From an archaeon (GTDB lineage: Archaea > B1Sed10-29 > JAVZDC01): 64,000 nucleotides of DNA. The translations under genes and the position numbers were made by a program. The stretch spans positions 110,531 through 174,530 of the forward strand of contig JAVZDC010000002.1 in the NCBI GenBank assembly GCA_038874115.1. The letters are read 5' to 3'. The notes beneath the pieces are model-generated. The model saw only the letters and a list, made by a program, of their open reading frames with translations, had not been told where the DNA came from and ran no database searches. Of this stretch, positions 22,200-63,944 are shown piece by piece (positions within the stretch are counted from its first letter, which is position 1; the number at the start of each line of letters is the position of its first letter).

Positions 22200-22201
22200 G
22201 A

Positions 22202-22274: not shown

Positions 22275-22276
22275 TT

Positions 22277-31580: not shown

Positions 31581-31581
31581 T

Positions 31582-31665
31582 GCAAGGGTGGCAGAGTGGA
31601 CAAATGCGCCAGGTTCAGGGCCTGGTGGCTTAGTGCCTTCAAGGGTTCGAATCCCTTCCCTTGCA
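31582..31665 (+). tRNA. tRNA-Leu (anticodon CAG)
   Basis: Acceptor GCAAGGG/CCCTTGC, anticodon stem CCAGG/CCTGG with loop TTCAGGG, long variable arm TGGCTTAGTGCCTTC, T-arm AAGGG-TTCGAAT-CCCTT. Confidence 0.8.
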
Positions 31666-31673
31666 TTTTTTAA

Positions 31674-40604: not shown

Positions 40605-40610
40605 AATTGT

Positions 40611-40973: not shown

Positions 40974-40974
40974 T

Positions 40975-45684: not shown

Positions 45685-45797
45685 GAGATCAAACCATTTG
45701 TCCTCTATCGAATAATAAATTTCTTTTAAATTCGTAAGACCACCTTTATCATGTTCTATTTTCTAATGCCACCATAGTATATAAAATTTTTTCTTTT

Positions 45798-46601
45798 TTA
45801 GCAACTTGATGGTGTAATCGATATCGTGGTTGTTATGTATTCAATTGTTTGGTCTGGATTGGAATAACGGAATATTATTTTAGTTAATCCTTCTATTCCT
45901 TGGGAAATTCCAACTATTTCAACTCTTGATGCTTCGGCCTCTGCTTTCATTTGTCCGCAACTACCATCATTTTTAGCTGCAATGTATGATTTCTCCAATC
46001 TCTTACAAAGAGGAGCACTAGAAACCCAAGTTCTGCTTTCCGGCCCAATAAAGATCGTTAATTTATCTTTCTCATTATTTTTATTTTTAAAAGTAACTTT
46101 AAAAATGTCTTTCCCTTTAAATTTACTTCCATCTATTTCTATTTTAACCTTTCCTTCCGAGTCACAACTTAGTGTTATAGGTTTAATTTCACCTAAAGTC
46201 TTTGAAAGTTGGTCATAAAAATTAGCCGGATATTCTGGAGAATATTCTGTCGCACTTTCAACGCTAGACCCCATACCTTGATAGATTCCGTTTCCCCCTA
46301 AGGTTAAATCATTTTCTAACTTTCTTATAATCATGTATTTTAAATTCTCCGAGCTGCCATACTTGGAAAGGTCGAGCGTAAAATTAGAAGCTATCGCATT
46401 TTCAATTTGAGCGTAAATGTGGCTTTCAACAGTTGCTTTTATCATCTTTGCAGAATTACTTTGAAAAGAGTTTTCTTGGAAATTAATTAGACTTTTTGAT
46501 ACTCTTACATTATTCTCCACGACTACTACTGCTGTAAAACTTGCTATCAAAACCAGCAAGGTTCCAATCAAGGCACTAAAAAGAGAAAAACCTCTTCTCA
46601 T
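45798..46601 (-). CDS. prepilin-like protein (class III signal peptide), 267 aa
   Basis: N-terminus MRRGFSLFSALIGTLLVLIASFTAVVVV (basic, RG, hydrophobic helix), as in archaeal type IV pilin precursors. Confidence 0.6.
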   Translation of the reverse strand: MRRGFSLFSALIGTLLVLIASFTAVVVVENNVRVSKSLINFQENSFQSNSAKMIKATVESHIYAQIENAIASNFTLDLSKYGSSENLKYMIIRKLENDLTLGGNGIYQGMGSSVESATEYSPEYPANFYDQLSKTLGEIKPITLSCDSEGKVKIEIDGSKFKGKDIFKVTFKNKNNEKDKLTIFIGPESRTWVSSAPLCKRLEKSYIAAKNDGSCGQMKAEAEASRVEIVGISQGIEGLTKIIFRYSNPDQTIEYITTTISITPSSC

Positions 46602-46752
46602 GAATATTTCTCTAATGCATGAAAATAAAGGAAGGGGTTTGTGCGAATTGTGCTGCGCCTGAAAACATTGGTTTTATGACTGCAAATAAAAGTATTGTTG
46701 CAATGATGATTATTATTAAGATATAAAGTGGAGTCCATTCCATGGAAATTAC

Positions 46753-47175
46753 CTAACATCCCTGTGGTAAAGTAGGTGTACCGCCTATGCCTACGACACA
46801 TTTATTAGTTCCACAAACAGCATAGACATCCACAGGTACATTTTTCTGCGGGGAGAATGTATTCTCATCGCAGTTTGCAATATTATTATTGATATTACTC
46901 GCGCATTCGAATTCTATATCTTTTCCCGCAGCTTCAACAAACTTTGAGGATCTAGCTGAATACGAGGTTCCAGTTTTTAATTTTACTGGAGTTGAACTTT
47001 TTTGAATATTGCAAGGTGAATTTGCTGCAGACTGAAGCAATGCTGCTACGGTTGTATCGAACTCTTGGCCAGGTACTGTTATTCCTCCAAGAATACTTAA
47101 TAAAATCGCTAAAATCATTACCGCAACTACCGCAGCAATCATAAGTTGGAACGTATCGAATGCTTGTCCTTTCAC
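46753..47175 (-). CDS. archaeal type IV pilin-like protein (class III signal peptide)
   Basis: N-terminus MKGQAFDTFQLMIAAVVAVMILAILLSILGG: KGQ motif then hydrophobic helix, matching the archaeal prepilin signal; Cys-containing C-terminal domain. Confidence 0.7.
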   Translation of the reverse strand: MKGQAFDTFQLMIAAVVAVMILAILLSILGGITVPGQEFDTTVAALLQSAANSPCNIQKSSTPVKLKTGTSYSARSSKFVEAAGKDIEFECASNINNNIANCDENTFSPQKNVPVDVYAVCGTNKCVVGIGGTPTLPQGC

Positions 47176-47190
47176 GCATTCACCTCCAAT

Positions 47191-47403
47191 TCACCATTTA
47201 TAATACGGACATATCTTACATTCTTCAGGTACTTGTTCAACAGTCCAAGGTTTTCCTATTAATTCTTTAACTTGCGGTGGGCAATCAGGGAAAGAACCAT
47301 AACAATTTGGAAACTTTTTTGCTTTTTTTATTTCTTCATAAATTTTTTCTCCTTCTTTTTTTCTTTTTATGATCGGTGTCCTTCTTCTTTTACCTCCACC
47401 CAT
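47191..47403 (-). CDS. hypothetical small basic Cys4 protein (70 aa)
   Basis: Highly basic N-terminus (GGGKRRRTPIIKRKK), four Cys (C-x5-C…C-x2-C); sits between two pilin genes. Confidence 0.45.
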   Translation of the reverse strand: MGGGKRRRTPIIKRKKEGEKIYEEIKKAKKFPNCYGSFPDCPPQVKELIGKPWTVEQVPEECKICPYYKW

Positions 47404-47443
47404 AACTTCACTACGTGTTTTTTATATAAAAATCTTTCTTTTT

Positions 47444-47842
47444 TTAAGAACAACTATCTGAGCAAAGATATATTGTACATCCTTGTTGTGAGTCGCACTT
47501 TGTAGATATTGGAATTTTCATATTGTATTTTGCAGTACAAAGGAATCCTTCACAATCTACTTTATTTCCGCACCTGTTCCTAATTCCTATAGATGTATCT
47601 GGGAAAAAATGTTGTATGCTTTTAGATGATATTGTTTCTCCTTTTTTTAGTTCAAAATCCCGAGATATGCATTGGGATGCTACTCTTACAGAATAAGCTT
47701 CCCCAACAATCTCTTTTAATAATGCTCCTGTTTCAAAAGGTTTTGGAGTAGAACTTATATATGCAAAGATTATTGCTGCTAAAGCGATAGCAAAAATTCC
47801 AGCAAGCATCATTTCAAAAATCGTAAAAGCTTGTCCTTTCAT
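47444..47842 (-). CDS. archaeal type IV pilin-like protein (class III signal peptide)
   Basis: N-terminus MKGQAFTIFEMMLAGIFAIALAAIIFAYI; paralogue of 46753..47175; overlaps the platform gene stop by 4 nt. Confidence 0.7.
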   Translation of the reverse strand: MKGQAFTIFEMMLAGIFAIALAAIIFAYISSTPKPFETGALLKEIVGEAYSVRVASQCISRDFELKKGETISSKSIQHFFPDTSIGIRNRCGNKVDCEGFLCTAKYNMKIPISTKCDSQQGCTIYLCSDSCS

Positions 47843-49881
47843 GCGATCCCTGTAATTAATAAAGAACTAAAGTACGTTGCGGCAAGGAAAAGAATGACAG
47901 ATATTGGTAAAGTCTTTGCAATGTTTATCTTTAAAGCAAGGTCGTTTTCCCCTTCCTCTATTTTACTTGTAAAATAGGTTAAAAGCAAAGTAATTTCAAC
48001 AACATAGATTCCAAGTAAAATTATGAAGAATTCAACACTTGGTAACTGCGAGACTTCAAACTTTCCAATACTAAAGAATCCAGGAATGTTTTTCATTTTG
48101 ATTCCAGTTTGTTGAGCAGACAAACCAGAAAGAGATTGAATTATTAATTTCTGCATGCTTCCAGTGATTCCAAGTACTAAAGGAGCAATTAGAAAAGCAA
48201 TCGATTTCATCATGGCAGTTATTTCTTCCAACATGTTTTTTATTTTTGTTTGTAATTTTCTCAAATCTTTTATTTGTAAAGAAAGAGATATAAGAGCTTT
48301 TGCTGCTTGTTGAACTCCTAAACTAGCAGCATCTAAAACAATCCTAAAACTGTTTTTTATAAAGTCTGAGTATACTTCTCTTAAAGATCCGTATGCAGGG
48401 TCAAAAAAAGCACTCTGAACAGTCATTCCCAAGTTTCTTATGTTTTCACTAGTTTTTGCAAAAACTTTTGCAATTTTTGTGTGTTTTAAAAAGTTAGCTG
48501 AATATTCCATCGCTTCTTCCAAAGGTCTATTTTCCCCAAGTCTTGAAGCAACAACATAGATCCCATCTTCAAATTCTCCTTCCATTGTCATTATTTCTAA
48601 CTGCAGTTTTCTTCTTTCGATAGAAATTCCGTAAAGATAGATTGAAACAAAAGCACTAAAACTTAAGAATACCCCTGCAATCCAACCAAAATGAACGTAT
48701 CCAGTCAAATCAGCATGAGTTTGTGAGTATTGCATAGCAAGGAATGGTTCCAAAATAAAGAAACAACAAAAGAAAATAGTAAATGCAACAATGGATGCAA
48801 TAAAGACAGCAGGTACTTCAGACTTACCTATCCTCATGTAACCTTTTTTTGGAAGTTTGGGAAGATTTTCCGGAATTTTTGGTGGCACGTATACAGGAGG
48901 TCTCATACTTAAAATGTTTTTAGCAAAGATCATCGTTCCAAAAGGAATCGCAGCAACATAAAGCCCAGTTATAAGCAAAGGATTGCTTAAAAAAGGCAAG
49001 TTTCCAATCATCGCTCCTATCGGTAAAAGAATTATAAGCATTAAAGGCAGTAGGACTCCAACATAGTAAAGGTAGATCGTTGGTTGTCTCATCTTTGTTA
49101 TGTACCCGTTCATTTCTTCAGAAAGGCCAGCTAAAACATCTTCTAAAGCCTTATCTAAAATTGCATGTCTCTTTCCTTCGTCTATTTCTATTATCGAAGA
49201 TCTTATTAACATCAAGGCATGTTTAAACTGTTCACTATAGTTTCCCCATTTATACGCTAAAGCATCTAACGCTTCCTCCATAGATCTATATATTCCAAAT
49301 TTTACATCCCAACTTAATTTCTTTAAATCTTCTGCAATCTTTCCCCTTCCATGCATTCCTGCAAACTCAACTGCCTTTTCCAAGTTTGGCGTTAGTTTCA
49401 TCGAAATTATAAGATAATTTACTATCTCGGGTATACTTAGCAAAGCTTCTATCTTTTGAGCTTTTGCTGCGTTTATTATATATCGGTTATAATAGTTTGC
49501 AAGAATGAAAGGAATTAATATTAAAACTGGAGCACACATCGTAAAAATAAACATGTCTAGCTCTTGGGTAATAAAAACCATGTATCCAAGAAAACCCAGG
49601 ATTGGCAAAACAAGTATTAAAGAGATTTGTGTTACAAAGATAGGAACAGCATTTACTTCCGCAGGAGTTAAAGGCCAACCTAAAAACTCTAGAGCAGAAG
49701 CAAATTCTTTATTTTTAAACTCATTTTTTGCTTTTACGTATTTTGCAGCCATTTTTGCCAATCTTATGTAAGAATTTTCTTTGATTTGTACTTTTGGTTT
49801 TTCTATAAGCTCTTTTGAAAATGCTTCTGCAAAACCTCCAAGCGTATTTTCTTCTTCAAACCTTCTTCTTCGCTCTCTCAA
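47839..49881 (-). CDS. type IV pilus / secretion membrane platform protein (FlaJ/TadC-like, two T2SS-F-type domains)
   Basis: 680 aa polytopic membrane protein with two cytoplasmic helical domains each followed by TM helices; immediately downstream of and overlapping the secretion ATPase gene. Confidence 0.7.
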   Translation of the reverse strand: MRERRRRFEEENTLGGFAEAFSKELIEKPKVQIKENSYIRLAKMAAKYVKAKNEFKNKEFASALEFLGWPLTPAEVNAVPIFVTQISLILVLPILGFLGYMVFITQELDMFIFTMCAPVLILIPFILANYYNRYIINAAKAQKIEALLSIPEIVNYLIISMKLTPNLEKAVEFAGMHGRGKIAEDLKKLSWDVKFGIYRSMEEALDALAYKWGNYSEQFKHALMLIRSSIIEIDEGKRHAILDKALEDVLAGLSEEMNGYITKMRQPTIYLYYVGVLLPLMLIILLPIGAMIGNLPFLSNPLLITGLYVAAIPFGTMIFAKNILSMRPPVYVPPKIPENLPKLPKKGYMRIGKSEVPAVFIASIVAFTIFFCCFFILEPFLAMQYSQTHADLTGYVHFGWIAGVFLSFSAFVSIYLYGISIERRKLQLEIMTMEGEFEDGIYVVASRLGENRPLEEAMEYSANFLKHTKIAKVFAKTSENIRNLGMTVQSAFFDPAYGSLREVYSDFIKNSFRIVLDAASLGVQQAAKALISLSLQIKDLRKLQTKIKNMLEEITAMMKSIAFLIAPLVLGITGSMQKLIIQSLSGLSAQQTGIKMKNIPGFFSIGKFEVSQLPSVEFFIILLGIYVVEITLLLTYFTSKIEEGENDLALKINIAKTLPISVILFLAATYFSSLLITGIA

Positions 49882-52144
49882 GAGCTTCCCTCCTAGCGAT
49901 AAGCGGTTTTACCTGGTTTTCTAAAAACCAGTCTTTCCATTCTTGAATTGCCATTTGATAATCAACCATTCCCAAATCTTCTCTCTGTCTTTCCAGTATT
50001 AAAAGCCAAGCATCATTAGCTGGAACAGTGTATTTCGCTTCCAATAATTCTGGTATTTGGTATTTATTCTTTTGGTCTACTGCAAATTGTTTTATTTCTG
50101 CCCTTGCGTTTATGTCTTCCCAGATTTGTTCAAAAGTTAGTCCTCTTCTTGCACTAATTCTTTTAAAAATCTCAGACTTTCTACAATTTTCTTCTAAAAC
50201 CTTAAAAGAATCTTTATCTACATTGTATTCTATAAGTTGCAAGAAACCATTTTCTTTTTCCGGATCTGAATACCAATGTTTTTCCACACTCGTTATTTCC
50301 ACAACTCTCCTATGTCTTTTCAAAGACCCCTTAAACCTTATTGGAGCACAAACTACACAAACGTCTGTTGCTTTGAAAGAAGTATTTGGAACTCCTAAAT
50401 CGTTTACGATTCTGTCCCATACTGAATATGCGGATTCTCCGTGGATAGTTCCCATAACTACGTTACCTACAGCACCAACTCTCATAGCTTCGTACAAAAC
50501 TAAAGCTTCTTTAGATCTAACTTCTCCAACTATCAATACTGAATCTCCAAGCCTTAAAGCAGTCCTTAATGCTTCTTCTGGCGGTACTTCAGCACTTGTT
50601 CTAGATACTGCTATTGCTGATTGCGTTTTTAATCTTTGAATGTTAAATCCAAGCCCTTTCATGAATTCGACTGGAAGTTCTAAAGTGTCTTCTAGAGTTA
50701 GAATTCTTAAACTTGGCAATATTTCCAACATTAAAGCTTGAAGAAGAGATGTTTTCCCTGCCCCTCTTGAACCAACAACAAGAGTGGATGCTTGCGCATC
50801 TATTAAATAAGATAATAAACCAGCTACTTTGCTATCTATCATTTTTACATCTATAAATTGTTGTAATGTCCACGGAGTTTCTTTATGCAATCTTAGTGCA
50901 AACGCAGTACCATCAGGGGATAAAGGTGGTCCAATAACTGCAATTCTTGTTTGTAAATCTCTTAAATCAAAATCCAAGACCGGATGGGCTTCATCAAAAG
51001 GTCTTCCAGAAAGGGCTCTAAACCTAGATACCAAAGTTTTTGCTTCTTCTTCAGTAAAAACAACGTTTGTTTGGCAAGAACCATATTCTCCATGCACAAC
51101 GTAGACAGGTTTGGTTCCAAGAGGAGCATCGATATAGACATCAGTTAACTTTCTATCAGAAAGCAACAATTCCAATATCCCGTAACCAACAGTATATCTG
51201 CAAACAATTCCAGCAATTTCCGAAGCTTCTTTTCCAGTAATTTTTATTCCATGTTTATTGGCCAAATCTATAATCGTTGTTTCATAAACTCCAAGCAAAT
51301 AGTTCCTTAGTTCTTCCGGATTAGCAAAATGTAATCCTTCAGGAGAATAAGTTGAAACAATATCTTTAGTCTTCGAAAGTAAAAAGTATTTTTCTGGAGG
51401 CAAGTTGTATTCTGGAGGGGCAATATAATAAAGATATTGAACTTTTGCTGGATGTTTGTATATATTTACAGTCGCATCTTTTACATAATATTGGTCCACT
51501 AATTCTATTTCTTCTGGAGTTGCGAAAAAAACTCTGGATGCAACAAAAGCAGGTTTTATTTGAGCTTCAAATAAACTATGATAAATAGTTCTTCCTGGCG
51601 GAATTCTCCCAAGCTTTTTTATAATTTCTTTTGTTTTTTGAATTAGAGTAGTTTTTTCAAAAGCAGCTAACATGAAATATAGTGTATTTAAGTATATGTC
51701 GCTACATTCTTTTTCTATTCCTTGAAGGCCGGCATTCCTTTCATTCTCTCTTTTCAAAGCTTCAACCAAAGTTAAATATGCTCGGAGAGGGTCTGTTTTT
51801 AAAAGATCTTGAGCAATGGAGACGACTAATGAATACCGTCCAGGAATTTCTCCTTCGCATTGAGGATGGCCAAGTCTTGAAGAATTCCACACTCCTTCCC
51901 TATAAAATAAGTTCCCCAATTCTCCGATTTCTTTAAGCATTTTTGTTTGTTCTTCAGAATATATTATTTCATAAACTTCAGCTAGAACAACCATGTCTGC
52001 ATTTGTTCTAGCCAACTTTTCTATAACTTCCCTCATGCATTGTGGAAAATCAGCAACAGAAGGGCCCCACTCGCTTCCTCTATAATCAATGATTAAATAC
52101 CTCTTTGTTCCTTCTGTTTTTATTGTGAAATCATGCGCAGCCAT
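49856..52144 (-). CDS. type II/IV secretion-system ATPase (FlaI/VirB11/PilB superfamily) with long N-terminal extension
   Basis: 762 aa; Walker A VVGSRGAGKTSLLQAL, downstream conserved Asp/Glu and His boxes typical of secretion ATPases. Confidence 0.85.
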   Translation of the reverse strand: MAAHDFTIKTEGTKRYLIIDYRGSEWGPSVADFPQCMREVIEKLARTNADMVVLAEVYEIIYSEEQTKMLKEIGELGNLFYREGVWNSSRLGHPQCEGEIPGRYSLVVSIAQDLLKTDPLRAYLTLVEALKRENERNAGLQGIEKECSDIYLNTLYFMLAAFEKTTLIQKTKEIIKKLGRIPPGRTIYHSLFEAQIKPAFVASRVFFATPEEIELVDQYYVKDATVNIYKHPAKVQYLYYIAPPEYNLPPEKYFLLSKTKDIVSTYSPEGLHFANPEELRNYLLGVYETTIIDLANKHGIKITGKEASEIAGIVCRYTVGYGILELLLSDRKLTDVYIDAPLGTKPVYVVHGEYGSCQTNVVFTEEEAKTLVSRFRALSGRPFDEAHPVLDFDLRDLQTRIAVIGPPLSPDGTAFALRLHKETPWTLQQFIDVKMIDSKVAGLLSYLIDAQASTLVVGSRGAGKTSLLQALMLEILPSLRILTLEDTLELPVEFMKGLGFNIQRLKTQSAIAVSRTSAEVPPEEALRTALRLGDSVLIVGEVRSKEALVLYEAMRVGAVGNVVMGTIHGESAYSVWDRIVNDLGVPNTSFKATDVCVVCAPIRFKGSLKRHRRVVEITSVEKHWYSDPEKENGFLQLIEYNVDKDSFKVLEENCRKSEIFKRISARRGLTFEQIWEDINARAEIKQFAVDQKNKYQIPELLEAKYTVPANDAWLLILERQREDLGMVDYQMAIQEWKDWFLENQVKPLIARREALERAKKKV

Positions 52145-52657
52145 TTTAACATTCCTCGTTCCGAATTCGTGAAAGCGACTTTTTTTACTTTTAAAATCTT
52201 GCTATTTTTTTCTATTTTTATAACTCTACTCTCTTTTATAAATCTTTATCCTCTTAAAGTCTTTGTGGCTAAAGGCGTCTCTTTTTTATTAACTCTTTTT
52301 GGTGTACCGCATGTTTTAATCTTCTCAAGCCCAGAGCCAAGCATTTTTGTAGATAATGTCGAAGCCCAAATAAAGGACTTATGTGTTGGACATATGGAAA
52401 TTGCGTTGATTTGTTCGATAATCTTAGCTTGTGATGATCGTTCTGTTAAATCTCGAGTTCTTGGTGCCTTTTGTTCTATTCCTTTTGTTTTTTTCTTAAA
52501 TCCTTTAAGAATCTCGGTCGTTTTGTTTTTTGGGCATTATTTCTCCTGGCCTTTTGCAGACTTTATTCATGATGTTCTTTTCAGGCTCACTCTTTTTATT
52601 GTAATTCTTATTTACTTTCTGATTTGGTATGTTTTATCCTGGAAGTTTAAGTTATAA
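52133..52657 (+). CDS. possible small polytopic membrane protein with Cys-Ser / Asn-x-x-Arg motifs (exosortase/archaeosortase-like?), or non-coding
   Basis: 174-aa ORF in the 550-bp divergent intergenic region; TM helices, EIALICSIILAC and FLNPLRISV. May be spurious (AT-rich DNA gives hydrophobic ORFs) or may start internally. Confidence 0.3.
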   Translation: MRSHFNIPRSEFVKATFFTFKILLFFSIFITLLSFINLYPLKVFVAKGVSFLLTLFGVPHVLIFSSPEPSIFVDNVEAQIKDLCVGHMEIALICSIILACDDRSVKSRVLGAFCSIPFVFFLNPLRISVVLFFGHYFSWPFADFIHDVLFRLTLFIVILIYFLIWYVLSWKFKL

Positions 52658-52696
52658 CTAAGAAAAAATTTAAATAGTTTTAGGCATTAGAAAATT

Positions 52697-53833
52697 ATGT
52701 CAAAGAAAATAATTTCAAATGCTTTCTTACTTTTGGTTTTGGCGAGTGTAGGATTCGCTGGATTCCAGACAATTTCTCCTTCCGAAGGAGGGTTTGTTTT
52801 TACTGACTTTCAAGAAATGACGATGTCTGGGTTTGCAGATTTTCTTGCTGAGAAAGCTTTGGAAAAGAAAGGAACGTATTTTGTTCATATAACTTCTGCA
52901 GATTGTAAAATTAATTTAGATAACTTCCGCGACTTTGCTTCTTCTACAAACTATGTAACAGTTTCCAAATATTCTATTGAAGATACTTCTTCTGGCAAAT
53001 CGCAAGATACTTTTTATCCAGGGTATTATGTTTTTAGTGTGAAAGATAAGGGAAAGGAAACTGTAAGTATTTCTGGCAAGGCTTTGAAAAAGGAGAGTAC
53101 TAGTTTACCGGATAAAGAATGCATTAGCAAATACCAAGGAGTTAGAGCAGATCAATGGGCGGGTTTCGGAAAAGAAAATGCCGGAATTCTCTATAGTGCC
53201 AGTAATCTTGTATACCCTGAGGATCAAGGAGAGGAATGCGGAAATATAGTTGCATGGTGGGGGGCGGCACAGAGACTCACCGGTATGGGGGCTGATCGGG
53301 CGGGGTGCGATACCAATGAGGGTGTGCCTATGCCAAGAGTCTATTACCGAGTGGTGCAAGATATTTTAGGGTTAGAACCTAAAGATTGTAGTGGCACCTT
53401 GGAAGATTGTTGTATATCTCATGCTACAGAGTGGATGAAGAACAATATTCGATATGATTCTTTCAGCGTTTTAAAGTACAACGATACCGCGATTTATTAT
53501 GACGGTGTTAATATTCCTTTAACTTATTATAATTATTATGCCACGGTTAAACCAAAAGTAGATAAAGGAACAGAAATGAATCCCAAGTGTTTTGGTTCGG
53601 GAATTCAGCGCTTTTGGTGGATCGTGGATTATTTATACTGTGTAAAGGGTTCAAAATGCATGGAGTCTGATGGTTCAAGGTTCGTTGCGCCTTGCAGTGC
53701 TAAATCCGGTTATGGAACATGCTGTCATGGAGATGTCCTTTATAGTGATGATGGAAAACCGCACTGTTGCCCAAGCGGTTACTCCAAAGTCATAGATTTT
53801 GGAAATGGAAATGTTCGGTGCTTTAAGAGTTAA
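52697..53833 (+). CDS. secreted cysteine-rich protein (378 aa)
   Basis: N-terminal signal peptide (KKIISNAFLLLVLASVGFAG), many Cys including CC pairs (DCCISHA, TCCHGD, PHCCPSG); locally elevated GC. Confidence 0.7.
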   Translation: MSKKIISNAFLLLVLASVGFAGFQTISPSEGGFVFTDFQEMTMSGFADFLAEKALEKKGTYFVHITSADCKINLDNFRDFASSTNYVTVSKYSIEDTSSGKSQDTFYPGYYVFSVKDKGKETVSISGKALKKESTSLPDKECISKYQGVRADQWAGFGKENAGILYSASNLVYPEDQGEECGNIVAWWGAAQRLTGMGADRAGCDTNEGVPMPRVYYRVVQDILGLEPKDCSGTLEDCCISHATEWMKNNIRYDSFSVLKYNDTAIYYDGVNIPLTYYNYYATVKPKVDKGTEMNPKCFGSGIQRFWWIVDYLYCVKGSKCMESDGSRFVAPCSAKSGYGTCCHGDVLYSDDGKPHCCPSGYSKVIDFGNGNVRCFKS

Positions 53834-53864
53834 TCTTTAAATTCTTATTTTCCCTTGTTTATTC

Positions 53865-54407
53865 ATGAAAGGACAAGAATCTGCACCAATTGAGCTTCTT
53901 TTAGGGACGATAATCCTAAGCTTTGTGTTAGTTTTGGTTTATTTTACTTACCAAAATCTTTCTGGAAAGCAATATTCTGCAGCATTACAAGTTGCATTTT
54001 CAAAACTTGGAAGTGAGTTGGAATTTGTGTACCAAGGAGCTGTGGGTACAAAAAGAGTACTTTCTTTAGATTTTTCTCCTTTAGAGGGCACAGGAAAAAA
54101 GACAGCGATAAAAATTCTTCATGGGCACAAGGAGACATGTTTAAAACAAACTGGAAAAGAAAACTGTTGGCAATTGATCGCCGTACAAGGTGAAGAAGGA
54201 CAAGCAGGAGTTTTATATTCTTTAGCATTAAACATTCCAACATCAATCGCGATAAAATTCAAGAATGCAACAGGAGACGAAGCGGTATGTGAAAATGAAT
54301 ACAGTTCTTGGAGCTCTCCTATACCTTGCCAATGGAAACCTACAAGATATACTTTGACTATAGAAAAGACAAGCAATAATGAAATAATAATTAGTCAAGT
54401 GAGTTAA
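53865..54407 (+). CDS. prepilin-like protein (class III signal peptide)
   Basis: N-terminus MKGQESAPIELLLGTIILSFVLVLVYF (KGQ + hydrophobic helix). Confidence 0.6.
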   Translation: MKGQESAPIELLLGTIILSFVLVLVYFTYQNLSGKQYSAALQVAFSKLGSELEFVYQGAVGTKRVLSLDFSPLEGTGKKTAIKILHGHKETCLKQTGKENCWQLIAVQGEEGQAGVLYSLALNIPTSIAIKFKNATGDEAVCENEYSSWSSPIPCQWKPTRYTLTIEKTSNNEIIISQVS

Positions 54408-54408
54408 T

Positions 54409-54921
54409 TTGCGAGGAATATCTGTCTGGCTTTTTTCAAAAATAATAATGCTTCTTTTCGTATTTTTAGCATTCGCATTAATGACGTCTTTTTATGTCTC
54501 AGTGAAAGAAAAAGAATTTACAGATTCTGCATATTTCTTTACTGAACAATTAAAAGAAAGAATTCAGATGATTGCTTTTGCAGACGTTCTTGAATCTCAG
54601 ACTCAGTTTTATTTACCAAAAACTCTTCCAGAAGAAAGGCAAGAAAAAGGAAGATTTTATACTTTAACTATAGGGAAAAAAGAAGATGTTTTCTATATTC
54701 TTCTTTCTTGGGGGACAGAAAAATCTCCGAAAAAATATTTAGTTGCTCAAGGTTTTAATATAAGTAAGGAATATAAGGTTAATAAGCAAGATTCTTGTAA
54801 GATAACTGTCCAATCATCGGAATATATTTGGTTAAATATCTCTAAGAAAGAAAAAGAGTTGACAATCCAAAAATGTAAGTCATCGACATCCTGTGACCAA
54901 CCAAAATGTGAGGGTTCATGA
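54409..54921 (+). CDS. prepilin-like protein (class III signal peptide)
   Basis: N-terminus MRGISVWLFSKIIMLLFVFLAFALM (RG + hydrophobic helix). Confidence 0.55.
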   Translation: MRGISVWLFSKIIMLLFVFLAFALMTSFYVSVKEKEFTDSAYFFTEQLKERIQMIAFADVLESQTQFYLPKTLPEERQEKGRFYTLTIGKKEDVFYILLSWGTEKSPKKYLVAQGFNISKEYKVNKQDSCKITVQSSEYIWLNISKKEKELTIQKCKSSTSCDQPKCEGS

Positions 54922-55304
54922 AAGGGTACATTGGTCCTTTAGGGGATGATATTCCAGGAATAATTTCCATAGTTTTAGCATTCTCAATTTTCTTTGCTGG
55001 TTTTTCTATAGCAATGACTACTTTGAATGAAAAAACTGTTGTTATTCAAAAGTTTAAGGGAACCATGGAAATTGCGAAAGCAATAAATTCAAAAACCGTT
55101 CTTCCAGAGAATTTGGAAGATTTACGGAAAGATGCACAGAGAATTGCAACTACAAGAGCTTTACAGTTTAATCTTTCTTATAAAGATACAAGAAGTCAAA
55201 TGGTTTGTGGAGAAAAAGCATTTTATCTTACATACTTTGTTGCAAGATATAATCAAGGTCAAACAGAAATAGTTCCAGATATATTGACAATTTGCGTTTG
55301 GTGA
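54918..55304 (+). CDS. prepilin-like protein (class III signal peptide)
   Basis: N-terminus MKGYIGPLGDDIPGIISIVLAFSIFFAGF; start overlaps the preceding gene stop by 4 nt. Confidence 0.5.
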   Translation: MKGYIGPLGDDIPGIISIVLAFSIFFAGFSIAMTTLNEKTVVIQKFKGTMEIAKAINSKTVLPENLEDLRKDAQRIATTRALQFNLSYKDTRSQMVCGEKAFYLTYFVARYNQGQTEIVPDILTICVW

Positions 55305-55308
55305 ATGA

Positions 55309-55824
55309 ATGAATAAAGCCCAAGCAGCTCTTTTCGACGCTCTTTTCTTTATGTTTTTAGCAGCTGGAGCAGCTTACTTATTACTTTTCGTGGCTGCAAA
55401 CTATGCTGCGGATACACAAAATCAAGTAGCTTTCACGTATAATTATGATTATCTCTCAAACGTTTTTGTAGCGTTACATTATTTAAAAGATGATTCTGGA
55501 AACTTTTTTTGGTTAAAATTTGAAGAAAAATTGGGGAAAGAAGAACAAAGTTGCAATTATTTGAAAGATTATTTTGGTTTGACAAAGGTTACTTATGATC
55601 CAAACGATCATGAAAAAGCAAAACCTATTTTAGAACTTTTGAATGCTTCAAGTCCAAGTGATTGTTTTGTTTTGGAAATAAGGGAAAATGGGTGCAAGAT
55701 ATACGTTTCCGGAAGTGAGGCTACTTGCGAAGAAAGCAAAGAAAGAAATCAAGTAATTGCTTATTCCACCGGAATTTCTAAAGGTCTTAAATCTTATACT
55801 TTAACTTTGAAGGTTTTGCGCTGA
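55309..55824 (+). CDS. prepilin-like protein (class III signal peptide)
   Basis: N-terminus MNKAQAALFDALFFMFLAAGAAYLLLF (K-A-Q + hydrophobic helix). Confidence 0.5.
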   Translation: MNKAQAALFDALFFMFLAAGAAYLLLFVAANYAADTQNQVAFTYNYDYLSNVFVALHYLKDDSGNFFWLKFEEKLGKEEQSCNYLKDYFGLTKVTYDPNDHEKAKPILELLNASSPSDCFVLEIRENGCKIYVSGSEATCEESKERNQVIAYSTGISKGLKSYTLTLKVLR

Positions 55825-58800
55825 GAATCTTTTTCTTATTATAAGAATTCCTAAAATTACTGCAATCAGGAAAGGTAAGAATTCTATCCCTTCAGGAACG
55901 CTTGGTAACTGAGCCAAGATGCTTGGTTTTTCAGAAGGTTTTGTTGGCCCACCGCCAGCTACTCTACTCGTGCCTAAGAAGTTTTGCATAGGTATTATTC
56001 CTCCCCCAGCCCAACCGCCTCCAAGAGTCTGGAAACTTGGGTTTAAGTTAAGTGGGAATTCATTACTAATCGATATTTTTCCTGATTCAGCATTGAATAT
56101 TATGGACCCTTGCGGGCTTCCAAACAACCATACTGGGAATGAACTAACAGGCTTTCCGTCTTTTGAAATTTCTACAACTGGTTCTCCGTTTGGTCCAGTT
56201 TTAACTTTTAATTCCATCCCATCGTCAAATTTTATTACCCCATCTTTTATCTCTTTTATATCATGACATTCTTCTTTGCCTTCTTTGTTCCAGCATAATT
56301 GATTATCTTTTATGTAAATAGATTCGTTTTTGTCTAATGAAACAATCCTGTCAAAGCACATTTCTTCCAACAATGCTTGCAGTTGAGCTCTTTCATCCGG
56401 GTCTCTTGTTTCAGCTACAAGTTTAAATCCTTTTAACCCATCAGTTTCGCAAGGATCTGTAATTCTCCAATTCTCAAAGTTTGTGCTTTCATCAACGTAT
56501 AAATCATAGAAGAATAAGTGCATTACATTCCTTCCATATGTTTTAGATTCTTCTTTTGCCCTGCCGATTACTGTTTTCTCGTTTTCAAACTCAATATAGC
56601 TTCTAGAGTCCATAGTAAATAAACAAGAACCTGCTTGTATGCTTCCATTCCTATAAACAGTTATTTCTTGGCCAACAGACAATACTTTTCCAAGCCCGTG
56701 AACTTCTTCTCCACATTTTGATTCTTTCAAAAATCTAACATAAAATCCATCTTTTTCTTTCCAAATGTACCCTTCTTTTGTGTTTATGAATTGGAATCCT
56801 CCAAAGGCGTTTTTAATTATTTTTTCTTTGTATGCTTCTTTTGCGTTTACTCCTCCAAACAATTTCAAAATAGCATTTTTAACGCAATCATTCTCGATAG
56901 TTACAGTATCATCAGAACGTATTTTGAATAATGTATCATCTTTCATGAATACGTTTATTACTTGGAGTGGTAATCCTAAATATCCTCGATCGTTGTGCCA
57001 TCTTAATCCTAATAACTCTGGCCCTTCAAGGATCAAATTACCCTTTTCATCATAAAGGTAATATCCTTTTCCTTCTATGCATTTGAATTTCCCTTCTTCT
57101 ACTTGTTGGCAAAATTGTATTGGGCAGTCTTCGCCAGTATTGAAGTCAAATATTGTGTCTGGATCAAAGTGGAATTGATAGATTTCAGGCATGAAATAAT
57201 TCATGTTGTTTGGAGGGTTTATTTTTCCTTGAATGTTTAAAATTTGAGTATAAGTAGATGCGCTCACAATCTCAGATATTTTATTTGCCGCTTCTGGTGC
57301 AAAGCCTTGGAGTAAAGTTCCTAAACTTTGTACTGCAGGTTTAAGTTGTGAAGATAATTGAGCTGTTAAGTCATCAGCCTCTTCCTTCAATTCTCCTCTG
57401 TCAACTTGTTGGAATGCTAAAAGAGAAAACTTAGTTTCTTTACATCTTTTTAAGCGTTCTAATCCTTCTGCTTTTGCTTCTTCATATTGTCTTTGGGCTT
57501 CATAAGACCATAGACTAGTAGCTATTGATGCAATTGTTGTAGCAGGTTTCACTATAGCTCCGACTCCACTGTACGTAGCTACCGTATCTACGCTTGTCGC
57601 AGCAAGGTCAGCTATAATGGCCGCATAGTACCATCCGAACTTCTCATCTACTTTTCCTTCAACATCCACAAGAGTTTTTTCACAATCTTCTCCAGATGCG
57701 TATGCTGCCAATGGATCAGAGATTGGCGCCCATCTAACTTCTTTCATATGTTCTGATATTTCTTGCATAACTCTACCTTGTTGTTGTAGACCAGCGGCAA
57801 TAGCGATAGCGACAAGTGCTCTTGATGCAGGAGTGATTCCTCCAAAGGTAGGTAGTGGGACTATAAAAGAGGTTAAAAGAATCGATTTTCCAACATCCCC
57901 CCAGTTAGGCATTTGTGCAGCCACTTTCGAAGCAGGTAATTGAGCCCAATCTTCTGTTGATGGGGCCCAACCACTCATGTTTACATTCGTGATATCCATC
58001 CCAATACTTGAGACAAACGTTTTTCCAAAATAGAATAAGCTCGATGGATGTTCATACAAATAATAAGCTGTTTCTAACGGATTTCCTACGGTAGCGAACA
58101 TTATTTTTCCCGGGCTTGCTTCTGTTATTCCGAAAACATTAAGTGGTCTTGCAGAAGTTAAAGCAGTTGTAAGTCCTTGTTCTTGGTCTGCTATAAAAAC
58201 ATAAGATTGCTTTCCACTTTGTACCTTTTGTGCAATTAATGGTATATCTTTCCATTCAATACCAAATACAAGGTTAGTGGATTTTATCCAAGCACTTGGA
58301 GGTCTGAAATCTTCTCCTTCAATTCCATCTTCGGCAGCATATTTTAGTTTTGTTACAACGATGTCAAGATATGAAGATTGATTTATGAGTTTTCGAGTAG
58401 GAGTTAACTCAAATTCTAAAGCATGAACTAATATTTCTCCTTTTGGTTCTTGGGTAAGAGCCCAAGCTCCAACAAGCAACATTGCAGCTCTGTGCATCAA
58501 AGCTTGAGCATGCGCCAGAGTTAAAGCGTTTAGCACATACCTACCTCCATTTATCAGGAACGTCACCCCAGCTCTGTAAAGACCTTCCTCAGCTTTAATG
58601 ATTATACCCTTTTTCGTACCTTTTTCAACTTCTAGATACCTGCTCAAATCGATAGTTTTCTTTCCTATAGAAATTTTAGATCTCCCTTCAGCAATGAGTT
58701 TTATCTCTTCATCCGATGGTTGCTCAATTATTTTTCTAACAAATTTGAGTCTAGGGTCCTTCACCAACCCACCCTCAGAGTTTTTCAGTTCCGATATATA

Positions 58801-60126
58801 ACCTTGTATTTTGTCCAAGCAACCTTCTTTAACACAAAATTCTTTCTCATATTCTCCTACGAGTCCATTTTCTATAGCATTTTTCATATCCTTTGGCATC
58901 TTTCCTTCTTTTATAAGCTCTTGTAGTTCTTTTTCAGATAGCCCTAATTCTTTTTCTGTTAGTGTTTTTATTCCTGAATACTCTACAAAAGCCTTTTCCA
59001 TAAGCTTATCATTATTTTTAAGCTCTTCTTCCAAACTCGTCATTTCTTTTTCCAACCTGGAAAGCCTCCATTTACCAATCCGCCCCAACTTCCCCGATCC
59101 TTCAAGTTCTTTCAATCCTTTTACTTTTTCACTAATCTCCATGTACTTTTTAGCCTGTGCTGCAATACCAGACTTTGTAACAGTCGTCCCCTTTTTCATC
59201 CCTCCTTTCAAAGAGGCAAACCCAACAGCAGTGCTTACCCATCCAGCAATTTCAGCATATTCTTCCAACCCTGCTTTTCCAGCAAGGAAATGAGTATAAG
59301 CTAATAGAGTTTTTGGTATCAAAAATCCAAAATCCATTTGAGAAAGAAGTCCAGTTGTTCTATTGCTTTCAATTATGTTCATCCTTCCTGTTTGTTGTAT
59401 GTCCATTATTTTTGTCGATAAATCCATTATTGCCATTGCAGCTTTATCTTTTTCCCCTCCTTTTATAGCATTCATGCTTTCTTCATATATTTCTTTATAC
59501 TGTTCTTTCCACCCGCTTTCACTCCATGCTCTCTCCAAATCTTGTTCTGAATTCTTTTCTATTGCGTTTAGCAATGCTTGGATTTTTCCATAATTCTGAG
59601 CATTTGTTTCTTTCTGAGCTTCACTTAAGTATCCATTTTCACAAGCAGGGTCATGAATTTCAGAACAGATTCTTGTATTCCAATCTATTTTTCCAGCAAA
59701 GCTTATTGCTCCCCTATAAAAAGCATCAGTAAGGTAACATTGAGACCCAGCAGGAACTATCTTATGTTGAAGAGTATCAAAAAGGAGTATTGGCTTTCCT
59801 CCAGGACCAAGAATAAATAAGTCCTTTACATTATTTACAGAAGAATCAGGAGAAACGCCTGCTTTATTATATGTATCTGCTCTTTTTTGAGCTTCCGTAT
59901 TTCCATAAAAGTCAATAGTTATCGAATTATTCAAAAGCCTTTCATATTCGCTCGCATTCAATGTGACAATCTCAACTTCCTTTTCACAATTTTGTACATT
60001 TTTTATTTTATACATCGAAGTAATATTAATCTCTTTTGAAATTGCAAAACTTATCGGTTCTAACGTTGAGAAAAATAATATTCCAAAAAACAAAATCGCT
60101 ATTAATTTATCTCGCATATCTTCCAA
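55801..60126 (-). CDS. giant (1441 aa) secreted/surface protein with C-terminal PEF/PGF-CTERM-like sorting signal
   Basis: N-terminal signal/TM (LIAILFFGILFFSTLEPISFA); no recognised catalytic domain; C-terminus PSVPEGIEFLPF-LIAVILGILII-RKRF (motif, TM helix, basic cluster); GC above local background. Confidence 0.8.
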   Translation of the reverse strand: MEDMRDKLIAILFFGILFFSTLEPISFAISKEINITSMYKIKNVQNCEKEVEIVTLNASEYERLLNNSITIDFYGNTEAQKRADTYNKAGVSPDSSVNNVKDLFILGPGGKPILLFDTLQHKIVPAGSQCYLTDAFYRGAISFAGKIDWNTRICSEIHDPACENGYLSEAQKETNAQNYGKIQALLNAIEKNSEQDLERAWSESGWKEQYKEIYEESMNAIKGGEKDKAAMAIMDLSTKIMDIQQTGRMNIIESNRTTGLLSQMDFGFLIPKTLLAYTHFLAGKAGLEEYAEIAGWVSTAVGFASLKGGMKKGTTVTKSGIAAQAKKYMEISEKVKGLKELEGSGKLGRIGKWRLSRLEKEMTSLEEELKNNDKLMEKAFVEYSGIKTLTEKELGLSEKELQELIKEGKMPKDMKNAIENGLVGEYEKEFCVKEGCLDKIQGYISELKNSEGGLVKDPRLKFVRKIIEQPSDEEIKLIAEGRSKISIGKKTIDLSRYLEVEKGTKKGIIIKAEEGLYRAGVTFLINGGRYVLNALTLAHAQALMHRAAMLLVGAWALTQEPKGEILVHALEFELTPTRKLINQSSYLDIVVTKLKYAAEDGIEGEDFRPPSAWIKSTNLVFGIEWKDIPLIAQKVQSGKQSYVFIADQEQGLTTALTSARPLNVFGITEASPGKIMFATVGNPLETAYYLYEHPSSLFYFGKTFVSSIGMDITNVNMSGWAPSTEDWAQLPASKVAAQMPNWGDVGKSILLTSFIVPLPTFGGITPASRALVAIAIAAGLQQQGRVMQEISEHMKEVRWAPISDPLAAYASGEDCEKTLVDVEGKVDEKFGWYYAAIIADLAATSVDTVATYSGVGAIVKPATTIASIATSLWSYEAQRQYEEAKAEGLERLKRCKETKFSLLAFQQVDRGELKEEADDLTAQLSSQLKPAVQSLGTLLQGFAPEAANKISEIVSASTYTQILNIQGKINPPNNMNYFMPEIYQFHFDPDTIFDFNTGEDCPIQFCQQVEEGKFKCIEGKGYYLYDEKGNLILEGPELLGLRWHNDRGYLGLPLQVINVFMKDDTLFKIRSDDTVTIENDCVKNAILKLFGGVNAKEAYKEKIIKNAFGGFQFINTKEGYIWKEKDGFYVRFLKESKCGEEVHGLGKVLSVGQEITVYRNGSIQAGSCLFTMDSRSYIEFENEKTVIGRAKEESKTYGRNVMHLFFYDLYVDESTNFENWRITDPCETDGLKGFKLVAETRDPDERAQLQALLEEMCFDRIVSLDKNESIYIKDNQLCWNKEGKEECHDIKEIKDGVIKFDDGMELKVKTGPNGEPVVEISKDGKPVSSFPVWLFGSPQGSIIFNAESGKISISNEFPLNLNPSFQTLGGGWAGGGIIPMQNFLGTSRVAGGGPTKPSEKPSILAQLPSVPEGIEFLPFLIAVILGILIIRKRFSAQNLQS

Positions 60127-63275: not shown

Positions 63276-63944
63276 TTAAACTTTTATTGTTTGGGCTAAA
63301 GAAAATATTATTTGAGTTATTGGGACCAAAAATATCAAATAAATTAAAAACTTATTCTTTCTTCCATCGATAAAGCTTAAAAAGGCCGAGGTTATAACTG
63401 CATAAAATCCTAAATAAATTCTATTTCCAAGTACTATATTTTCTATAACCCCTTCAGAAATTGAGAAATCGTCTAGTCCGGAAAAATCAAGTTGAGATAC
63501 GATTGAGAGCATTAAACCAAGTATGGTTGGAACTAAAATGCATCCAGCAAGCAAAGTTAGCTTTTCAATAGTTAAAATGCTTTTTCTTTGATTTTGGATT
63601 TTTATATACTCTGAAATTTCATCAGCACAACTTTTCAATGCTTTTGAAATGTCTGCCCCAGTTGAATATCCAGATATTAAGATGTCAAGAGCTCTTTTAA
63701 AATATTCAGACTTAGTTTCTTCCCTGATTTGCATTAGAGCTTTATCTACCGATTCTCCTTTCGAAACTCTGATAAAAGCTTTGTTAAATTCTTTTCCAAT
63801 CTCCCCTTCCTTCCCCAAATTCTTTAAAACATCTTCAAAAGGCAAAAAAGTTGAAAGTGCAGCTGCAGCATACAATGTACCAACAAGTTCTTTTTCCAAT
63901 TTTTCTATCTTCCCAATTTCTTTAAGGGTTTCCATAAATTGCAA
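63276..63944 (-). CDS. T2SS-F-domain (FlaJ/TadB-like) membrane protein, single domain
   Basis: 222 aa; cytoplasmic helical N-domain followed by TM helices, the GspF/TadB-like architecture. Weak call. Confidence 0.45.
   Translation of the reverse strand: MQFMETLKEIGKIEKLEKELVGTLYAAAALSTFLPFEDVLKNLGKEGEIGKEFNKAFIRVSKGESVDKALMQIREETKSEYFKRALDILISGYSTGADISKALKSCADEISEYIKIQNQRKSILTIEKLTLLAGCILVPTILGLMLSIVSQLDFSGLDDFSISEGVIENIVLGNRIYLGFYAVITSAFLSFIDGRKNKFLIYLIFLVPITQIIFSLAQTIKV

What the first reader, a model, noticed from the sequence alone, without database searches (positions are those of the whole stretch)
53100..53830. Local GC-rich compositional island inside the Cys-rich secreted protein gene
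Against a very AT-rich background, stretches of this gene are conspicuously GC-rich (e.g. GGGCGGGGTGCGATACCAATGAGGGTGTGCC; GGTTCGTTGCGCCTTGCAGTGC; CCGCACTGTTGCCCAAGCGG). The secretion ATPase and the 1441-aa giant gene are also somewhat GC-enriched. This could reflect horizontal acquisition of part of the island, or merely Cys/Gly/Ala-rich coding.
Basis: seen in the sequence. Interest (0 to 1): 0.4.

Follow-up and report, generated by a model that had tools for sequence, protein, structure and literature searches.

The report
GC-rich patch in orphan secreted-protein gene
The GC-rich stretch is real, but about two thirds of it comes from the amino acids encoded there and the rest from a short run of rare codons, inside a protein gene with no known relatives in an archaeal pilus gene cluster; there is no positive evidence that the cluster was imported from another organism.

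Summary
Window 53157-53356 is 53.5% GC against a 33.9% background. It is the highest GC peak in the 64 kb that is not a tRNA gene.

About 65% of the excess follows from the encoded amino acids (Gly/Ala/Trp/Arg/Pro-rich segment; expected GC 0.46-0.49). The rest is a run of GC-ending rare codons at codons 189-220. Their GC3 is 0.50-0.55 against 0.31-0.33 expected.
- Against window-wide codon usage this gives z of about 3.4-4.0.
- Against the gene's own codon pool it is weaker (p=0.016-0.07).
- Three other genes show comparable excursions.

The ATPase and the 1441-aa gene have normal GC3 and homologues in related Micrarchaeota-type MAGs, so they give no sign of island acquisition.

The 378-aa gene is a singleton ORFan. 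Searches of 5.8 billion protein clusters and 1.84 billion representatives returned only itself. It is the only gene from 40281 to 60126 without a counterpart in related loci. It lies immediately downstream of a small archaeosortase-like gene, in a slot whose content differs between relatives. In a roughly 94-95% identical sister MAG, both contigs end on either side of it.

No RNA structure, Rfam family, repeat or DGR template was found. Foreign origin of the orphan gene cannot be excluded or tested. Low interest.

The parts
52697..53833 (+). 378-aa ORFan gene. It has an N-terminal hydrophobic, Sec-type signal-like segment and 16 Cys, concentrated in the C-terminal third. It lacks a C-terminal sorting signal.
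   Evidence: ORF. Cys positions and composition. Only a self-hit; no relatives. No Pfam, NCBIfam or PHROG family. No PDB sequence or fold match. The signal-peptide reading is by inspection.
53157..53356 (+). Core GC-rich patch: 53.5% GC and GC skew about +0.33. It encodes ...QWAGFGKENAGILYSASNLVYPEDQGEECGNIVAWWGAAQRLTGMGADRAGCDTNEGVPMPRVYYRVV.
   Evidence: composition; observed 0.532, amino-acid expectation 0.464, z 3.9; highest of all coding 201-nt windows.
53261..53356 (+). Run of GC-ending rare synonymous codons at codons 189-220: GGG x3, GCG x2, CTC, ACC x2, CGG, CGA, GTG x3, GTC, CAG, GAG, TGC, TAC.
   Evidence: Per-codon table with window-wide relative frequencies. 40-codon window z 3.99 and z3 3.44, second highest of 17,182 windows. 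Within-gene synonymous shuffle p=0.016 for the fixed window and 0.069 for the maximum window.
53579..53778 (+). Second, milder GC rise over the Cys/Gly/Ser-rich C-terminal module. It is explained by amino-acid composition.
   Evidence: 0.455; observed 0.458, expected 0.424, z 1.9.
53105..53359 (-). 84-aa antisense ORF coinciding with the GC patch. It is most likely a by-product of stop-codon depletion in GC-rich DNA and not a gene.
Evidence: TTG start, no family match.
52133..52657 (+). Small (174 aa) exosortase/archaeosortase-family membrane protein, immediately upstream of the orphan gene and divergent from the ATPase gene.
   Evidence: PF09721 at 38.7 bits. TIGR04178 at 42.2 bits, above its cut-off of 23. 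41-43% identical homologues in L001-L003.
49856..52144 (-). FlaI/PilB/TadA-type secretion ATPase (762 aa). Its GC enrichment is confined to codon positions 1 and 2.
   Evidence: PF00437. NCBIfam FlaI-like and TadA-like hits, all below their curated cut-offs. 66-69% identical homologues in L001-L003. GC3 0.231, z -1.8.
47839..49881 (-). 680-aa polytopic partner of the ATPase (TadC/PilC/FlaJ-like).
   Evidence: Weak PF00482 hit, E=7e-4, below the gathering score. 51% identical homologues sit next to the ATPase in L001 and L002.
53865..55824 (+). Four small genes (180, 170, 128 and 171 aa), each with an N-terminal hydrophobic helix; candidate pilin-like subunits. They are conserved in relatives.
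   Evidence: ORFs. Homologues in L001 and L002 in the same order. The pilin-like reading of the N-termini is by inspection only.
55801..60126 (-). 1441-aa surface protein with a C-terminal motif, TM helix and RKR tail. Its GC3 is normal.
   Evidence: Homologues in L001 and L002. GC3 0.263, z -0.1.

Best explanation
The GC 'island' is a local property of one protein-coding gene and is not evidence that the gene cluster was imported.

The gene (52697-53833) encodes a lineage-specific, probably secreted, Cys-rich protein with no detectable relatives. It sits immediately downstream of a small archaeosortase-like gene, in a slot whose content differs between relatives, within an otherwise conserved pilus-type (FlaI/TadA-like ATPase) cluster of a Micrarchaeota-related DPANN archaeon.

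Within the gene, a roughly 65-residue segment is rich in Gly, Ala, Trp, Arg, Pro and Val. This forces GC-rich first and second codon positions and accounts for about two thirds of the GC excess. On top of that, some 30 consecutive codons (189-220) use GC-ending synonyms that are rare in this genome, which supplies the remaining third.

The cause of that codon run is not shown. I infer it is most likely ordinary local heterogeneity in codon choice in a fast-evolving, weakly expressed accessory gene. A selected translational slow-down just after the N-terminal domain is a secondary possibility.

Shown: the composition decomposition, the orphan status, the synteny, and the absence of RNA structure or repeats.
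Inferred: secretion, the surface or host-interaction role, and the cause of the rare-codon run.
For: - Peak size and rank.
- The GC peaks that equal or exceed it are tRNA genes.
- Decomposition: amino-acid-expected GC is 0.464 (201 nt) to 0.49 (40 codons), against observed 0.532 to 0.58 and background 0.339. Other coding windows with a similarly high amino-acid-driven expectation (37901-38101, 57772-57972) show observed close to expected.
- The residual is concentrated in codons 189-220, with named rare codons. Windows of comparable synonymous excess occur in three other genes (z 3.8-4.4). The within-gene shuffle is only p=0.016-0.069.
- The first 150 codons have native GC3 of 0.17-0.33. Dinucleotide signature delta* is 0.061 against a window mean of 0.084.
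- The ATPase and giant gene have normal GC3 and are conserved in L001-L003.
- Orphan status.
- Variable slot: L001 carries two unrelated proteins of 387 and 348 aa at this position, while L002 and L003 carry none.
- No integrase or transposase family was found among the 20 predicted proteins I scanned between 38.9 and 64 kb.
Against: - The synonymous excess in the patch is nominally strong against genome-wide usage (z about 3.9). GC rises by a similar amount (+0.23 to +0.27) at all three codon positions, which is what a DNA-level compositional patch would also give.
- Gene-level codon usage is the second most atypical of 53 genes.
- With no homologue, neither conservation of the rare codons nor the protein's function can be checked.
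- Secretion and a surface role rest on sequence inspection and context only.
Confidence: 0.7

Rival explanations
1. The orphan gene, or only its 200-nt GC-rich segment, is foreign DNA. It would have been acquired from a GC-richer donor, for example a related DPANN archaeon with 42-50% GC or an unknown mobile element or virus, and be only partly ameliorated.
For: - GC3 of 0.50-0.55 in the patch would fit a donor of about 45-50% GC. Relatives carrying the same pilus cluster span 38-50% GC.
- The gene is the only one from 40281 to 60126 without a homologue in related loci.
- Its codon usage is the second most atypical.
- It lies at a point where gene order differs from L001-L003.
- In the sister MAG, both contigs stop on either side of it.
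Against: - No donor or homologue exists in about 15 billion proteins or in metagenome and viral contigs.
- The 5' 400 nt and the 53400-53550 stretch are fully native in GC and GC3.
- The dinucleotide signature is typical and the tetranucleotide correlation is unremarkable at the 8th percentile.
- There are no flanking repeats, no tRNA target and no integrase among the neighbouring proteins scanned.
- A 200-nt in-frame foreign patch would need an unusual recombination event.
Confidence: 0.15
2. The run of rare GC-ending codons is selected. It would slow ribosomes after the N-terminal domain (about residues 40-130) has emerged, helping folding or export of a disulfide-rich secreted protein.
For: - The cluster of about 30 rare codons begins roughly 55-60 codons after the end of the only moderately confident predicted N-terminal domain.
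- Rare-codon clusters are widespread and in some cases positionally conserved (PMC2565806, PMC5438181; from their titles and abstracts).
Against: - Conservation cannot be tested because there are no homologues.
- Clustering relative to the gene's own codon pool is weak (p=0.016-0.069).
- Similar excursions occur in three unrelated genes.
- The domain boundary comes from a low-confidence model (mean pLDDT 43).
- tRNA abundances are unknown.
Confidence: 0.12
3. The patch harbours an embedded nucleic-acid element: a structured small RNA (as at the other top GC peaks, all tRNA genes), an antisense gene (84-aa ORF, 53105-53359), or a diversity-generating retroelement variable region.
For: - In this genome the GC peaks that equal or exceed this one are RNA genes.
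- An antisense ORF coincides with the patch.
- The minus strand of 53140-53400 folds slightly better than shuffles (z -1.99, 4 of 200).
Against: - No Rfam match, even at E<=1, and no tRNA.
- Plus-strand z is -0.81; sub-window z-scores range from -0.09 to -1.34 on both strands.
- There is no second copy or template repeat anywhere in the 64 kb or in related loci.
- The antisense ORF has a TTG start and no family match. Open antisense frames are expected in GC-rich DNA.
- There is no G-quadruplex motif.
Confidence: 0.03

Closest known systems
Taxonomically restricted (ORFan) secreted or surface protein genes in variable slots of archaeal type IV pilus-like loci
   Same: It is flanked by a FlaI/PilB/TadA-type ATPase (PF00437), its polytopic membrane partner, and several small proteins with N-terminal hydrophobic helices. 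It has a signal-like N-terminus and an even number (16) of cysteines. The occupant of the slot differs between related genomes.
   Different: No family membership can be shown: there is no homologue, no domain and no confident fold. It lacks both a pilin-type N-terminus and a C-terminal sorting signal, so it is neither an evident pilin nor an evident archaeosortase substrate.
Rare-codon clusters inside coding sequences (Clarke & Clark 2008, PMC2565806; Chaney et al. 2017, PMC5438181)
   Same: A contiguous run of about 30 codons is enriched in synonyms that are rare in the host genome. It lies in the interior of a gene for a probably secreted protein.
   Different: Positional conservation, the criterion used to argue function, cannot be tested. 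Significance is modest once the gene's own codon pool is used.
Horizontally acquired genomic island with atypical GC
   Same: There is a local GC deviation, atypical codon usage in one gene, that gene is absent from relatives, and it lies at a point of gene-order difference.
   Different: The deviation covers about 200 nt of one gene and not an island. Neighbouring genes have native GC3 and are vertically conserved. No mobility genes, att-like repeats or tRNA junction were found, and the dinucleotide signature is native.

Membership tests
Horizontally acquired genomic island | Atypical composition at synonymous sites across the genes of the island | tested here: not met
   ATPase GC3 is 0.231 (z -1.8) and the giant gene 0.263 (z -0.1). 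The pilin-like genes are 0.19-0.24. Only the 378-aa gene is raised (0.325, z +2.1), and this is driven by codons 171-220.
Horizontally acquired genomic island | Genes absent from related genomes | tested here: not met
   Every gene from 40281 to 60126 has a tblastn homologue in L001 and/or L002 and L003, except the 378-aa gene. The feature is met for that single gene only.
Horizontally acquired genomic island | Mobility signatures: integrase or transposase, flanking direct repeats, tRNA junction | tested here: not met
   No such Pfam families were found among the 20 predicted proteins scanned between 38.9 and 64 kb; several small ORFs in that span (for example 39322-39944) were not scanned. 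No repeats flank the gene or link the two gene-order junctions. The nearest tRNA is more than 20 kb away.
Horizontally acquired genomic island | Atypical oligonucleotide signature | tested here: not met
   delta* is 0.061, below the window mean of 0.084 (74% of same-size windows are more deviant). Tetranucleotide correlation is at the 8th percentile.
Structured non-coding RNA embedded in the CDS | Match to a curated RNA family | tested here: not met
   Rfam at gathering threshold over the window finds only tRNAs elsewhere. Rfam at E<=1 over 52600-53950 gives two chance-level hits outside the patch.
Structured non-coding RNA embedded in the CDS | Folding energy below that of dinucleotide shuffles | tested here: not met
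   z is -0.81 (+) and -1.99 (-) for 261 nt, and -0.09 to -1.34 for four sub-windows.
Structured non-coding RNA embedded in the CDS | Compensatory base changes across homologues | not testable with these tools
   No homologous sequence exists in any collection searched.
Diversity-generating retroelement variable region | A near-identical template repeat nearby | tested here: not met
   blastn of 53140-53400 against the whole window gives no hit longer than 23 nt. The repeat finder reports no family involving the patch. I did not search the window systematically for a reverse transcriptase.
Rare-codon cluster | Local excess of genome-rare synonymous codons | tested here: met
   Codons 171-220 give a codon-likelihood z of -3.82. 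The 40-codon GC z is 3.99, second of 17,182 windows. Against the gene's own pool, p=0.016.
Rare-codon cluster | Positional conservation of rare codons in orthologues (evidence of selection) | not testable with these tools
   There are no orthologues.
Archaeal type IV pilus-like locus (context) | PilB/FlaI/TadA-type ATPase with an adjacent PilC/TadC/FlaJ-type membrane protein | tested here: met
   ATPase: PF00437 at 71.8 bits (cut-off 24.9). Membrane partner: PF00482 is weak (20 bits, cut-off 25.2), but it is conserved next to the ATPase in L001 and L002. All subtype-specific NCBIfam models fall below their cut-offs, so the subtype is unassigned.
Archaeal type IV pilus-like locus (context) | Pilins with class III signal peptides, and a prepilin peptidase | not tested
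   The N-termini of the 53865-55824 products look pilin-like by eye (for example MKGQESAPIELLLG...). No model or peptidase search was run.
Archaeosortase substrate (for the 378-aa protein) | C-terminal tripartite signal: motif, TM helix, basic tail | tested here: not met
   The protein ends ...GNGNVRCFKS with no hydrophobic helix. By contrast the 1441-aa protein ends PSILAQLPSVPEGIEF, a TM helix and RKR.

The most novel reading that the evidence does not exclude
The 378-aa gene is a recently arisen or recently acquired, strain-variable surface or secreted protein. It would occupy a recombination-prone slot next to the archaeosortase-like gene of a DPANN pilus cluster and serve as a host-interaction determinant that turns over between closely related strains. 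The GC-rich rare-codon patch would be the scar of its foreign or mosaic origin.
Probability: 0.12. Interest if true: 0.4.

Novelty: new member of a known kind. Interest (0 to 1): 0.15.

Why it matters
It matters little on its own. The case is a useful caution: in an AT-rich genome, a GC spike inside a gene can be mostly an amino-acid effect, and GC1/GC2 enrichment of neighbouring genes says nothing about transfer.

The modestly interesting by-products are these. The gene is a true singleton among about 15 billion proteins. It sits in a slot of a conserved DPANN pilus and archaeosortase cluster whose content varies between relatives. A roughly 94-95% identical sister genome fails to assemble exactly across it. 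If the slot holds strain-specific surface proteins, it could be relevant to how these episymbiotic archaea recognise hosts. Nothing here demonstrates that.

Tried and rejected
- Embedded RNA: rejected. No Rfam hit at gathering threshold or at E<=1. ARAGORN found nothing there. Folding z-scores on both strands and in four sub-windows were unremarkable.
- DGR or repeat origin: rejected. There is no second copy of the patch in the window or in related loci.
- Inverted repeats linking the two gene-order junctions (46602-46752 and 52658-53864): none beyond chance 9-13-mers.
- G-quadruplex: the patch has G6 and G5 runs, but no four-tract motif with loops of 12 nt or less.
- Donor identification failed at every level. 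The word-indexed search of 5.8 billion clusters, full phmmer against 1.84 billion representatives, metagenome and viral contig scans, PDB sequence search, and Pfam, NCBIfam and PHROGs found nothing beyond the self-hit. tblastn against the window itself and L001-L004 found nothing. BLASTP against the two slot occupants of L001 gave E of 0.47 or worse.
- Structure: the single-sequence AlphaFold2 model is poor (mean pLDDT 43, pTM 0.32). Foldseek against PDB gave no hit with E<=0.001.
- Exact-sequence contig look-ups for the orphan and its neighbour returned nothing.
- Antisense 84-aa ORF as a real gene: rejected as unsupported.

Full report

Yes. The window is 33.9% GC. The flagged region 53100-53830 is 42.4% GC, against 34.7% for the 5' part of the same gene.

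The signal is concentrated. 53157-53356 is 53.5% GC over 200 nt, and 150-nt windows reach 0.55-0.56. That is about 4.6 SD above the mean for 200-nt windows. The GC peaks that equal or exceed it at the 100-300-nt scales are tRNA genes at 22125-22368 and 31505-31666. The other tRNA genes at 1163-1247, 16593-16696 and 17804-17876 also rank among the top peaks. Among coding windows of 201 nt it is the highest in the window. A second, weaker rise lies at 53579-53778 (about 0.455).

**2. What carries it?**

The patch lies inside ORF 52697-53833 (+), which encodes 378 aa. The product has a hydrophobic, signal-like N-terminus and 16 cysteines, mostly in the C-terminal third. The window is archaeal chromosome:
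- EF-2, RNA polymerase A' and B, and PolB are present.
- At least one tRNA gene (16593-16696, 104 nt) is long enough to contain an intron.
- NCBI names the identical protein 'MAG: hypothetical protein QW735_00855 [archaeon]'.

The gene's neighbours are:
- a FlaI/PilB/TadA-type ATPase (49856-52144, PF00437) and its polytopic partner (47839-49881);
- a small exosortase/archaeosortase-family protein (52133-52657; PF09721, TIGR04178);
- four small genes with N-terminal hydrophobic helices (53865-55824);
- a 1441-aa surface protein (55801-60126).

**3. Amino acids or DNA?**

I used the codon usage of the other 52 genes of the window to compute the GC expected from the amino-acid sequence alone.
- For 53156-53356, the expectation is 0.464 against 0.532 observed (z 3.9).
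- For the 40-codon core, the expectation is 0.49 against 0.58 observed (z 3.6-4.0). GC3 there is 0.50-0.55 against 0.31-0.33 expected (z 3.0-3.4).

About 65% of the excess over background is therefore forced by the Gly/Ala/Trp/Arg/Pro/Val-rich peptide...CGNIVAWWGAAQRLTGMGADRAGCDTNEGVPMPRVYYRVV. About 35% is synonymous.

The synonymous part is a run of GC-ending codons at positions 189-220. Each is used for only 3-22% of its amino acid elsewhere in the window: GGG x3, GCG x2, CTC, ACC x2, CGG, CGA, GTG x3, GTC, CAG and GAG. TGC and TAC, at 32-39%, also occur in the run. Other coding windows whose amino acids predict a similarly high GC (37901-38101, 57772-57972) show observed close to expected, so the extra codon effect is specific to this patch.

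**4. How unusual is the codon effect?**

Across 17,182 overlapping 40-codon windows, this one ranks second (z 3.99). Three other genes have peaks of z 3.8-4.4, at 26500-26619, 7608-7727 and 18263-18382. Local codon heterogeneity of this size therefore recurs in the window.

When synonymous codons are shuffled only within the 378-aa gene, the patch is weakly significant: p=0.016 for the fixed window and p=0.069 for the best window.

At gene level, the codon-usage likelihood is the second most atypical of 53 genes (z -3.49). It falls to -2.16 when codons 171-220 are removed. The conserved archaeosortase-like neighbour is third, at -3.12. The dinucleotide signature is typical (delta* 0.061 against a mean of 0.084) and the tetranucleotide correlation is unremarkable at the 8th percentile.

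The residual is modest.

**5. The ATPase and the giant gene**

Their slight GC excess (36.0% and 36.7%) lies at codon positions 1 and 2. Their GC3 is 0.231 and 0.263, with z of -1.8 and -0.1 after allowing for amino acids. Both have homologues in related MAG loci:
- L001, Candidatus Micrarchaeota, 38% GC;
- L002, 42% GC;
- L003, Candidatus Micrarchaeota, 50% GC.

The ATPases are 66-69% identical. Nothing suggests these two genes were acquired as an island.

**6. Orphan status and context**

The 378-aa protein matched only itself in every search:
- the word-indexed search of 5.8 billion clusters;
- a full phmmer scan of 1.84 billion representatives;
- metagenome and viral contig scans;
- Pfam, NCBIfam, PHROGs and PDB.

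Every other gene from 40281 to 60126 has a tblastn homologue in L001 and/or L002 and L003.

In L001-L003 the order is: giant-1, 302-360-aa protein and archaeosortase-like gene on one strand, then divergently the ATPase, membrane partner, two small genes, four pilin-like genes and giant-2. In the window, the central block from the archaeosortase-like gene through 46753-47175 is inverted relative to the two flanks. The orphan gene lies exactly at one junction, 52658-53864.

In L001 the same position downstream of the archaeosortase-like gene holds two unrelated lineage-specific paralogues of 387 and 348 aa. L002 and L003 have none. L006 (70% identical ATPase, 49% GC) has yet another order. The slot is therefore variable and the locus is prone to rearrangement.

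A sister MAG, GCA_038885235.1, is 93.8-94.9% identical in DNA. One of its contigs ends at window position 52545 and another begins at 53994. The only unassembled 1,448 nt span the orphan gene, and no homologue is among that MAG's proteins. This is compatible with strain-level variability at the slot but does not prove it.

**7. Alternatives tested**

- RNA element: rejected. There is no Rfam or tRNA match and no significant folding excess.
- DGR variable region or repeat-derived segment: rejected. There is no second copy.
- Antisense 84-aa ORF (53105-53359): no support. Open antisense frames are expected in GC-rich DNA.
- G-quadruplex: no canonical motif.
- Mobility genes or junction repeats: none found among the neighbouring proteins scanned.
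- Structure prediction without an alignment: poor (mean pLDDT 43). Foldseek found nothing.

**8. Best reading**

The GC spike is an ordinary coding-composition effect, amplified by a short run of rare GC-ending codons. It sits in a lineage-specific, probably exported, Cys-rich protein gene that occupies a variable slot of a conserved DPANN pilus and archaeosortase cluster.

The cause of the rare-codon run is not established. Local drift in a fast-evolving accessory gene is the default. A translational pause or a mosaic or foreign origin remain possible, but both are untestable without homologues.

I rate the finding as low interest. The orphan status and the assembly gap in the sister strain are the only mildly notable by-products.

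Noticed in passing
window 46602-46752 and 52658-53864, against L001-L003: The block from the archaeosortase-like gene through the ATPase, its membrane partner and two small genes is inverted relative to its flanks, compared with three related MAG loci. The orphan gene sits at one junction. No inverted repeats link the two junctions.
   Followed up: partly
window 52546-53993; L005 and L007 (GCA_038885235.1 contigs JAWAAE010000008 and JAWAAE010000013): A sister MAG with about 94-95% nucleotide identity has two contigs that end on either side of the orphan gene. A 1,448-nt gap is left, and no homologue of the orphan is among that MAG's proteins.
   Followed up: partly
window 55801-55950 (C-terminus of the 1441-aa protein); L001 homologue: The C-terminus reads PSILAQLPSVPEGIEF, then a TM helix, then RKR. 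The L001 homologue has PSIIARLPWTPENN, a TM helix and RRK. This looks like a sorting signal that the adjacent small archaeosortase-like enzyme could process. The 1282-aa beta-helix protein (17879-21727) ends similarly (PAPEDKLEF, a TM helix and a basic tail).
   Followed up: partly
window 58563-58994, against L007 4559-4840: There is an indel or replacement inside the giant surface-protein gene between the two sister strains. The product is 1441 aa here and 1336 aa in the sister MAG.
   Followed up: no
window 16593-16696 and 22277-22368: Two long tRNA genes (104 and 92 nt), probably intron-containing. The first was found by Rfam but missed by ARAGORN. For the second, ARAGORN reports an odd 4-base anticodon.
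   Followed up: no
window 26500-26619, 7608-7727, 18263-18382: Three other 40-codon stretches have a synonymous GC excess as strong as the flagged one (z 3.8-4.4), but at lower absolute GC. Their cause is unknown.
   Followed up: no
L001 7194-9497 (- strand): Two paralogous lineage-specific proteins with signal-like N-termini (348 and 387 aa) occupy the same slot downstream of the archaeosortase-like gene. They are unrelated to the window's orphan.
   Followed up: partly
homologues P0047, P0057, P0099, P0120: Several related DPANN ATPases are about 1270-1300 aa long and carry intein or homing-endonuclease domains (PF14528, PF14890). The window's ATPase has no intein.
   Followed up: no
window 63276-63944 (-): A second T2SSF-domain protein (PF00482, E=4.5e-12) lies at the edge of the window. 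It suggests another pilus or secretion module nearby.
   Followed up: no
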